A stretch of DNA of 64,000 nucleotides, from NCBI RefSeq assembly GCF_055900595.2, contig NZ_CM148325.1; one strand, given 5' to 3'. Below are positions 41,624 through 41,706 of this stretch, one piece after another. Under the pieces are notes generated by a model that saw only the letters and a program-made list of their open reading frames with translations, was not told the DNA's origin and searched no databases. Every line of letters begins with the position of its first letter. Position 1 is the first letter of the stretch. The position numbers were made by a program, and so were the translations under genes.

Positions 41624-41636
41624 TGAGATTTGTTCA
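41624..41636. promoter_or_regulatory. Candidate MetR-binding site in the metH / iclR divergent promoter region
   Basis: TGAGATTTGTTCA matches the TGAA-N5-TTCA MetR box at 12 of 13 positions, about 100 bp upstream of the metH start. Confidence 0.4.
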
Positions 41637-41688
41637 ACATTAACTCATCGGATCAGTTCAGCAACTATTGCATTAGCTAACAATAAAA

Positions 41689-41706
41689 ATGAAAATGATT
41701 TCCACG
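41689..41706. promoter_or_regulatory. Candidate IclR auto-operator upstream of iclR
   Basis: gaaaatgatttccacg contains the near-palindromic IclR-box core (TGGAAATNATTTCCA-like), 20-40 bp upstream of the iclR ATG. Confidence 0.5.

What the first reader, a model, noticed from the sequence alone, without database searches (positions are those of the whole stretch)
41624..41706. IclR-box-like palindromes at both the iclR and aceB promoters
A TGGAAAT-N-ATTTCCA-like element occurs just upstream of iclR (gaaaatgatttccac) and a related one upstream of aceB (aaatggaaattgttttt, 51439-51469). This would be consistent with IclR auto-regulation and aceBAK repression both operating in this window. A MetR-like box (TGAGATTTGTTCA) in the same divergent region may serve metH.
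Basis: partly seen in the sequence, partly recalled or inferred. Interest (0 to 1): 0.25.

Follow-up and report, generated by a model that had tools for sequence, protein, structure and literature searches.

The report
Textbook IclR and MetR operator sites
These short sequences are the already characterised sites where E. coli's IclR repressor shuts off its own gene and the glyoxylate-bypass operon, and where MetR activates metH, so the finding is correct but ordinary.

Summary
The window is E. coli chromosome: metH(-) / iclR(+) / arpA / aceK-aceA-aceB(-) / metA(-).

- **iclR site:** TGAAAATGATTTCCA (41690-41704) has one mismatch to the published IclR consensus TGGAAATNATTTCCA. It is the only hit in 64 kb at up to 2 mismatches. 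It covers -14..+1 of the iclR promoter.
- **aceB site:** TGGAAATTGTTTTTG (51467-51453, minus strand) matches only the left half-site (4 mismatches). It is not a palindrome and would fail a consensus scan. It lies inside the published IclR box II and overlaps the inferred -35.
- **MetR-like box:** TGAGATTTGTTCA (41624-41636) is at chance frequency as a bare motif.

All three elements are base-for-base identical to K-12.

Across 76 (iclR side) and 63 (aceB side) distinct enterobacterial intergenic sequences, the half-sites are nearly invariant and the central spacer bases vary. The MetR box sits exactly 46 bp from a conserved metH promoter element in 75 of 75 sequences, while its distance to the iclR-side FadR box varies. 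It therefore belongs to metH.

This is already-known regulation (IclR autoregulation, aceBAK repression, FadR activation of iclR, MetR activation of metH). Interest is low.

The parts
37845..41528 (-). metH coding sequence (GTG start at 41528), the target of the MetR box
   Evidence: ORF list. The N-terminus [12 protein letters not shown] was translated. Annotated as metH in the 100%-identical strain and in K-12.
41578..41586 (-). Inferred metH extended -10 (TGC-CAGTAT on the minus strand) inside a conserved island. The predicted metH transcription start is near 41571.
   Evidence: The island ATACTGGCA is at least 95% conserved in 76 sequences. Its reading as a promoter element is my inference; the simple promoter scan found nothing.
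41624..41636 (-). MetR binding site for metH. It reads TGAACAAATCTCA in the metH orientation, and its centre is about -59 from the inferred metH start.
   Evidence: One mismatch to TGAANNNNNTTCA. Half-sites TGAG/TTCA are kept in 75 of 76 sequences while the central 3 nt vary. It is exactly 46 bp from the metH -10 island in 75 of 75 sequences. Identical to K-12.
41642..41658 (+). FadR activator site of the iclR promoter (AACTCATCGGATCAGTT), at -62..-46
   Evidence: Conserved as ACTC(A/C)TC(C/G)GATCAGT across genera. It sits 46-47 bp from the IclR box. The literature states that FadR binds just upstream of the iclR promoter. The match to the FadR consensus is from my own knowledge.
41668..41673 (+). 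iclR -35 hexamer TTGCAT (-36..-31)
   Evidence: TTG(C/T)(A/G)(T/A) is conserved in 76 of 76 sequences. It lies 17 bp upstream of GAAAAT. The assignment as -35 is my inference.
41690..41704 (+). IclR autoregulatory operator TGAAAATGATTTCCA. It covers the -10 hexamer (GAAAAT, 41691-41696) and the transcription start (A41704).
   Evidence: Unique 1-mismatch consensus hit. Position -14..+1 follows from the promoter and RBS boundary in PMC7041290 Tables 3 and 4. Only positions 1, 7 and 8 vary in 76 sequences, and ATTTCCA is kept in 75 of 76. Identical to K-12.
41728..42552 (+). iclR coding sequence; the repressor is intact
   Evidence: Pfam HTH_IclR and IclR_C domains. 272 of 274 residues identical to K-12 IclR, with both differences in the N-terminal tail before the HTH.
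49745..51346 (-). aceB coding sequence, first gene of aceBAK
   Evidence: ORF list. N-terminus [11 protein letters not shown]. Annotation.
51428..51433 (-). Inferred aceB -10 hexamer TAGTCT. The inferred start is at about 51420-51422.
   Evidence: TAGTCT is found in 53 of 63 sequences. It lies 16 bp after TTGATT. This is my inference; the scan tool requires at least 4 of 6 matches per hexamer and reported nothing.
51448..51471 (-). Conserved IclR box II block AAAATGGAAATTGTTTTTGATTTT. It contains the 15-mer TGGAAATTGTTTTTG (51467-51453) and the inferred -35 TTGATT (51455-51450).
   Evidence: The 15-mer is invariant in 63 of 63 sequences except for the central N (T, C or A), and TTGATT is found in 61 of 63. 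It sits at -50..-27 from the inferred start, inside the published box II at -52..-19. Identical to K-12.
51488..51500 (-). IHF-like site TATCAATAAGTTA (-79..-67)
   Evidence: The pattern WATCA(A/G/T)-N4-TTR lies exactly 33 bp upstream of box II in 58 of 63 sequences. IHF is a published positive regulator of aceBAK. The IHF consensus is from my own knowledge.
51537..51547 (-). Candidate IclR box I element ATTTCCGAAAC, with two IclR-type half-sites back to back, at about -126..-116
   Evidence: (A/G)TTTCCGAAA occurs exactly 80 bp upstream of box II in about 53 of 63 sequences, or about 55 counting two that are offset by one base. Its position agrees with the published box I at -125..-99. The assignment is my inference.
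51581..51594 (+). Cra (FruR)-like site GCTGAATCGCTTAA, at about -173..-160 of aceB and just after the metA stop codon
   Evidence: AAGCG(A/T)TTCAGC is conserved across genera. Cra is a published activator of aceBAK. The consensus match is from my own knowledge.

Best explanation
These are the canonical, previously characterised cis-regulatory sites of the E. coli glyoxylate-bypass and methionine-synthase locus.

(a) IclR binds the near-palindrome TGAAAATGATTTCCA, which spans the -10 hexamer and +1 of its own promoter. This excludes RNA polymerase and gives negative autoregulation. FadR, bound at -62..-46, activates the same promoter.

(b) IclR binds box II of the aceBAK promoter. Box II has a perfect TGGAAAT half-site followed by a degenerate half that merges into the -35 hexamer TTGATT. 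Binding blocks polymerase. A second, upstream site (box I, probably the ATTTCCGAAA element at about -126) supports the published second mode of repression. IHF and Cra sites upstream provide activation.

(c) The LysR-type activator MetR binds TGAACAAATCTCA, centred about 59 bp upstream of the metH start, and activates metH.

Shown here: the sequences, their identity to K-12, their statistical status, an intact IclR protein, cross-genus conservation with a dyad-specific pattern, and the rigid spacing of each box to its own promoter. Taken from the literature: binding, repression and activation. Inferred: the aceB and metH transcription starts and hexamers, and the box I assignment.
For: - The window is E. 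coli, and the locus is annotated metH / iclR / arpA / aceK / aceA / aceB / metA.
- All three boxes are identical to K-12.
- The iclR 15-mer is the only hit at up to 2 mismatches in 64 kb, against 0.18 expected.
- The iclR promoter and 5'UTR boundary in PMC7041290 places the 15-mer at -14..+1.
- Published: the consensus; box II at -52..-19 and box I at -125..-99; IclR self-repression, FadR activation, IHF and Cra activation; the MetR consensus and a footprinted metH site in Salmonella.
- Phylogenetic footprint over 76 and 63 distinct sequences from about 20 genera. The mean majority-base frequency is 0.966 for the iclR 15-mer, 0.988 for the aceB 15-mer and 0.968 for the MetR box, against about 0.79 for the rest of each intergenic region. 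Variation falls on the consensus 'N' and spacer positions.
- Spacing: MetR box to metH -10 island is 46 bp in 75 of 75 sequences; MetR box to FadR box is 19, 20, 28, 129 or 142 bp; FadR box to IclR box is 46-47 bp. IHF-like site to box II is 33 bp in 58 of 63, and ATTTCCG to box II is 80 bp in 39 of 63.
- The IclR protein is intact, with HTH_IclR and IclR_C domains, and is 99% identical to K-12.
Against: - The aceB element has 4 mismatches to the consensus and is missed at up to 3 mismatches. Thirty-eight equally good 15-mers occur in the window.
- The MetR motif occurs at chance frequency.
- Part of the conservation of both IclR sites could come from the overlapping -10 or -35 hexamers and not from the operator.
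- The simple sigma-70 scan found no promoter in either region, so the aceB and metH starts are my inference.
- The primary footprinting papers (Gui 1996, Pan 1996, Cortay 1991, Byerly 1991) are not held in the library. Exact footprint boundaries were therefore taken from secondary citations.
- No binding was tested here.
Confidence: 0.94

Rival explanations
1. The conserved blocks are core promoter or UP-element sequence (A/T-rich -10, -35 and upstream regions) and are not IclR operators. On this view the aceB element's resemblance to the IclR box is a chance half-site.
For: The aceB 15-mer fails a consensus scan (4 mismatches). The half-site TGGAAAT occurs 18 times in the window. Both elements overlap inferred promoter hexamers.
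Against: The invariant ATTTCCA half at iclR lies at -6..+1, where promoters impose little sequence constraint. The TGGAAAT half at aceB lies at -46..-40, upstream of the -35. Only the consensus 'N' position varies across genera. The published footprint, box II at -52..-19, covers exactly this block. The published title of Pan et al. 1996 states that the IclR site overlaps the aceBAK promoter.
Confidence: 0.03
2. The MetR-like box is a chance match, binds a different factor, or acts on iclR and not on metH.
For: The motif frequency equals chance (34 observed against 30.4 expected). The box lies in a shared divergent region only 74 bp from the iclR start. It carries a G where the consensus has A.
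Against: The half-sites are kept in 75 of 76 sequences while the spacer varies. The distance to the metH promoter island is invariant at 46 bp in 75 of 75 sequences, and every indel in the region falls between this box and the iclR-side FadR box. MetR activation of metH and a footprinted MetR site in Salmonella metH are published. From my memory of that paper's abstract, the metH site is written TGAANNNNNCTCA. That is exactly this sequence in the metH orientation, including the conserved G/C deviation.
Confidence: 0.03

Closest known systems
E. coli K-12 iclR autoregulatory operator (Gui, Sunnarborg, Pan & LaPorte 1996, J Bacteriol 178:321) with the upstream FadR site (Gui et al. 1996, J Bacteriol 178:4704)
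   Same: The sequence from the MetR box through the IclR box is identical apart from one substitution (C41662 against T in K-12, at -42, in a non-conserved column). The gene order and the protein are the same, with 272 of 274 residues identical.
   Different: There are two substitutions in the ribosome-binding region (GGAGG here against AGAGA in K-12). Nothing differs in the operator itself.
aceBAK IclR box II and box I (Cortay 1991; Pan, Unnikrishnan & LaPorte 1996; Yamamoto & Ishihama 2003)
   Same: The sequence is identical to K-12 from the 15-mer through the inferred transcription start. The position agrees with the published -52..-19. An upstream ATTTCCGAAA element lies where box I is published.
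   Different: None in box II. Six scattered substitutions lie upstream between box I and box II; one falls in a variable position of the IHF-like site (TATCAATAAGTTA against TATCAACAAGTTA in K-12).
MetR site of the Salmonella typhimurium and E. coli metH control region (Byerly, Urbanowski & Stauffer 1991, J Bacteriol 173:3547)
   Same: The half-sites are the same (TGAA...CTCA in the metH orientation), and so is the spacing to the metH promoter element in the Salmonella and E. coli loci.
   Different: The central spacer is CAAAT in Escherichia and CATGT in Salmonella and most other genera. The primary paper could not be read here.

Membership tests
E. coli IclR operator (IclR box) | Match to the SELEX consensus TGGAAATNATTTCCA | tested here: met
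   The iclR site has 1 of 14 specified positions mismatched and is unique in the window. The aceB site has 4 of 14 mismatched, with a perfect left half only. The feature is met for iclR and only half met for aceB.
E. coli IclR operator (IclR box) | Overlaps the core promoter of the repressed gene | tested here: met
   The iclR site lies at -14..+1, using the promoter boundary in PMC7041290. The aceB site lies at -46..-32, overlapping the inferred -35 and inside the published -52..-19.
E. coli IclR operator (IclR box) | Sequence identity with the experimentally footprinted K-12 sites | tested here: met
   Both blocks are identical to MG1655. The footprint positions come from secondary citations only.
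E. coli IclR operator (IclR box) | The cognate IclR regulator is encoded and intact | tested here: met
   HTH_IclR and IclR_C domains are present. The protein is 99% identical to K-12 IclR.
E. coli IclR operator (IclR box) | Purifying selection with a dyad pattern (half-sites fixed, spacer free) | tested here: met
   Over 76 and 63 distinct sequences, variation is confined to position 8 (and positions 1 and 7 at iclR).
E. coli IclR operator (IclR box) | Physical binding by IclR and effector response (glyoxylate/PEP against pyruvate) | not testable with these tools
   Literature only.
MetR (LysR-type) activator site | Match to TGAA-N5-TTCA (extended form ATGAA-N5-TTCAT) | tested here: met
   TGAGATTTGTTCA has 1 mismatch. 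The flanking A of ATGA is present. The motif frequency alone is at chance level.
MetR (LysR-type) activator site | Fixed position about -60 upstream of the activated promoter | tested here: inconclusive
   The 46-bp spacing to the conserved metH promoter island is invariant in 75 of 75 sequences. The metH transcription start itself is inferred and not mapped.
MetR (LysR-type) activator site | MetR binding and homocysteine-modulated activation of metH | not testable with these tools
   Published for Salmonella and E. coli. metR is not in the window.
FadR site | A FadR-type 17-bp box just upstream of the iclR -35 | tested here: inconclusive
   A conserved ACTC(A/C)TC(C/G)GATCAGT box lies at -62..-46. 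The literature states that FadR binds just upstream of the iclR promoter. The consensus comparison rests on my memory.

The most novel reading that the evidence does not exclude
The imperfections of the two IclR operators may be selected features and not drift. The A at position 3 of the iclR site and the whole degenerate right half GTTTTTG of the aceB site are invariant across about 20 enterobacterial genera. Both sites also share an extended AAAATGRAAAT left arm that goes beyond the SELEX consensus. The candidate box I (ATTTCCGAAAT) has the half-sites back to back, exactly 80 bp upstream of box II. Together these could mean an asymmetric, affinity-tuned mode of binding by the IclR tetramer that sets the order in which aceBAK and iclR are derepressed. 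The simple palindrome model would not capture this.
Probability: 0.15. Interest if true: 0.25.

Novelty: already known. Interest (0 to 1): 0.05.

Why it matters
It matters little beyond correct annotation. The result confirms that this strain keeps the standard wiring of the glyoxylate shunt and of B12-dependent methionine synthase:

- IclR autoregulation;
- FadR input on iclR;
- IclR, IHF and Cra control of aceBAK;
- MetR activation of metH.

One methodological point is useful. The primary, footprinted aceBAK operator fails a consensus scan, and the MetR box is statistically invisible as a bare motif. Both are unmistakable by cross-genus footprinting and by spacing analysis. Motif-threshold tests alone would therefore have wrongly refuted two real sites.

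Tried and rejected
- **Sigma-70 promoter scan.** The simple scan found nothing in either intergenic region. Both promoters have weak hexamers, so I assigned them by hand from conservation and spacing.
- **Primary papers.** Pan 1996, Cortay 1991, Byerly 1991, both Gui 1996 papers, Fritsch 2000, Punekar 2016 and Thomason 2015 are not held. Footprint coordinates come from secondary citations. The mapped aceB and metH starts could not be retrieved.
- **Curated matrices.** No curated IclR or MetR matrix was available offline. I scored mismatches to the published consensus instead. A matrix built from the orthologous sites would have been circular.
- **Literal site string.** A literature search for TGAANNNNNCTCA found nothing.
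- **Leyn et al. 2014 supplements.** They list regulon membership but not site sequences.
- **Shared 11-mer.** AAAATGRAAAT occurs only at the two operators (2 hits against 0.23 expected). I derived the pattern after seeing both sites, so the statistic is biased and I do not use it as evidence.
- **aceB 5'UTR structure.** The conserved aceB 5'UTR does not fold better than shuffled sequence (z = 0.16), so I dropped the idea of an RNA element.
- **Second MetR-like match.** TAAAATTTGTTCA at 51511-51523, in the metA-aceB spacer, is not conserved across genera. I rejected it as chance.

Full report
**Identity of the locus**

The 351 bases around the finding match 5425 of 5426 complete E. coli genomes. 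The match is 100% to strain Z0117EC0005 and 95-99% to most others. The annotation of that strain and of K-12 MG1655, together with the ORF list, gives this layout:

- metH, minus strand, 37845-41528, GTG start
- iclR, plus strand, 41728-42552
- arpA, plus strand
- aceK, aceA and aceB, minus strand, with the aceB ATG at 51346
- metA, minus strand

The IclR protein has the HTH_IclR and IclR_C domains. It is identical to K-12 IclR at 272 of 274 residues, and both differences lie in the N-terminal tail.

**Checking the observation**

- **iclR site.** TGAAAATGATTTCCA (41690-41704) has one mismatch to TGGAAATNATTTCCA. It is the only hit in 64 kb at up to 2 mismatches, against 0.18 expected.
- **aceB site.** TGGAAATTGTTTTTG (51467-51453, minus strand) has a perfect left half-site. 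Its right half matches at only 3 of 7 positions. It is missed at up to 3 mismatches, and 38 15-mers in the window score as well.
- **MetR-like box.** TGAGATTTGTTCA (41624-41636) has one mismatch. There are 34 such matches in the window against 30.4 expected, so the motif alone carries no information.

**Comparison with K-12 and the literature**

The metH-iclR intergenic region differs from MG1655 at one position upstream of the transcription start (C41662 against T). It also differs at two positions in the ribosome-binding region. All boxes are identical. The aceB promoter is identical from upstream of the 15-mer through the inferred start.

The literature held here gives the following.

- The IclR consensus is TGGAAATNATTTCCA (PMC8222616, citing Pan 1996 and Yamamoto & Ishihama 2003).
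- The primary IclR site, box II, lies at -52..-19 of the aceB promoter. The secondary site, box I, lies at -125..-99. Each has its own repression mechanism (PMC2724298).
- IclR represses its own expression, and FadR activates iclR from a site just upstream of the promoter (PMC9755347; PMC8255177; PMC3094197 Fig. 8 legend).
- IHF and Cra activate aceBAK. Glyoxylate and PEP favour the inactive dimer, and pyruvate favours the active tetramer.
- The MetR consensus is TGAANNNNNTTCA, extended to ATGAA-N5-TTCAT, and a MetR site has been footprinted in the Salmonella metH gene (PMC3353975, PMC13393422, PMC5002191).

PMC7041290 lists the iclR promoter as ending ...AAAATGATTTCC and the 5'UTR as starting ACGATACAG. 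This puts +1 at A41704 and the IclR 15-mer at -14..+1, covering the -10 hexamer GAAAAT.

**Comparative evidence**

A scan of species-representative genomes with the IclR protein returned 80 enterobacterial loci, with IclR identity of 87-99%. I located iclR, metH, aceB and metA in each. I then aligned 76 distinct metH-iclR spacers and 63 distinct metA-aceB spacers.

| Element | Form across genera | What varies | Mean majority-base frequency |
|---|---|---|---|
| iclR site | (C/T)GAAAA(T/C)-N-ATTTCCA | positions 1, 7 and 8 | 0.966, against 0.79 for the rest |
| aceB site | TGGAAAT-N-GTTTTTG in 63 of 63 | central N only (T, C or A) | 0.988, against 0.80 for the rest |
| MetR box | TGAGA-NNN-GTTCA, half-sites kept in 75 of 76 | central triplet (CAT, CAA, TTT, GAT) | 0.968, against 0.79 for the rest |

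In the aceB block the adjacent TTGATT is present in 61 of 63 sequences. Fixed half-sites with a free spacer are the signature of a dimeric DNA-binding protein and not of general A/T-richness.

**Which gene owns which box**

The MetR box lies exactly 46 bp from a conserved island (ATACTGGCA) in 75 of 75 sequences. On the metH strand that island reads as an extended -10, TGC-CAGTAT. The distance from the MetR box to the FadR box is 19, 20, 28, 129 or 142 bp. The distance from the FadR box to the IclR box is 46-47 bp.

All indels therefore fall between a metH module and an iclR module:

- metH module: promoter plus MetR box, with the box centred at about -59 from the inferred start;
- iclR module: FadR box at -62..-46, -35 TTGCAT, and the IclR operator.

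From my memory of the Byerly et al. 1991 abstract, which I could not verify here, the metH recognition sequence was written TGAANNNNNCTCA. That is exactly this box read in the metH direction, and it explains the invariant G.

**The aceB promoter**

From conservation and spacing I infer a -35 of TTGATT (51455-51450), a 16-bp spacer, a -10 of TAGTCT (51433-51428) and a start near 51421. This places the elements as follows:

| Element | Position relative to the inferred start | Note |
|---|---|---|
| 15-mer | -46..-32 | |
| Conserved block AAAATGGAAATTGTTTTTGATTTT | -50..-27 | inside published box II |
| IHF-type site TATCAATAAGTTA | -79..-67 | 33 bp upstream of box II in 58 of 63 |
| ATTTCCGAAA element | about -126 | 80 bp upstream of box II in most genera; agrees with published box I |
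| Cra-type site GCTGAATCGCTTAA | about -173..-160 | |

The start site, the hexamers and the box I, IHF and Cra assignments are inferences. The simple promoter scan found nothing.

**Mechanism**

At iclR, IclR occupies the -10 hexamer and +1 and occludes RNA polymerase. This gives negative feedback on a promoter that FadR activates.

At aceBAK, IclR on box II overlaps the -35 and competes with polymerase. At higher concentration, box I engages the polymerase alpha C-terminal domain and disassembles open complexes (published).

At metH, MetR bound at about -59 activates transcription.

Binding and regulation are taken from the literature. The sequence, position, conservation and spacing evidence was produced here.

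**Verdict**

Everything is already known, so interest is low.

The only mildly open point is why the 'imperfect' halves of both IclR operators are invariant across genera.

Noticed in passing
window 44998-46326 (target duplication TACATCGCG at 44989-44997 and 46327-46335): A complete 1329-bp IS10 is inserted in the 3' end of arpA, about 19 codons before its stop and just outside aceK. It has a 402-aa DDE transposase ORF at 45105-46313, an Rfam RNA-OUT match at 45043-45112, and the terminal sequences CTGATGAATCCCC... and ...GGGGATCTCTCAG. None of the 5426 complete E. coli genomes has IS10 at this junction.
   Followed up: yes
window 41718 and 41722: The iclR ribosome-binding region reads AAAAAGGAGGCTGTC here and AAAAAAGAGACTGTC in K-12. 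Other genera also have GGAG, so K-12 appears to carry the weakened Shine-Dalgarno sequence. This may affect IclR level. A paper reports that BL21 also carries two iclR-promoter mutations.
   Followed up: partly
window 41705-41722: The iclR 5'UTR just downstream of the operator (CGATACAGAAAAAGGAG) is almost invariant across about 20 genera. This is more than a Shine-Dalgarno sequence needs. It could be the downstream part of an extended IclR-tetramer footprint or an mRNA-level element.
   Followed up: no
window 51537-51547 (minus strand): ATTTCCGAAA(C/T) lies directly after the metA terminator. It is an 11-bp element with IclR-type half-sites back to back, and it is a perfect palindrome, ATTTCCGAAAT, in 16 genomes. 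It sits 80 bp upstream of box II. It is degraded in Salmonella (ATTTGTG / ATTTTTG), Yokenella, Trabulsiella and a few others, which hints that the box I repression mode is not universal.
   Followed up: partly
window 48125-48385: Three tandem REP-type elements (Rfam naRNA4) fill the aceK-aceA spacer. This makes the spacer about 313 bp, against 182 bp in K-12.
   Followed up: no
window 41662: The single upstream substitution relative to K-12 is C instead of T at -42 of the iclR promoter, between the FadR box and the -35. The alignment column is not conserved.
   Followed up: yes
window 51511-51523: A second MetR-like 13-mer (TAAAATTTGTTCA, 1 mismatch) lies in the metA-aceB spacer. It is not conserved across genera and is probably chance.
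   Followed up: yes
window 31969-32165 and 53668-58679: A lysine riboswitch lies upstream of lysC. A complete rRNA operon (5S, 23S, tRNA, 16S) lies downstream of yjaA. Both are ordinary.
   Followed up: no
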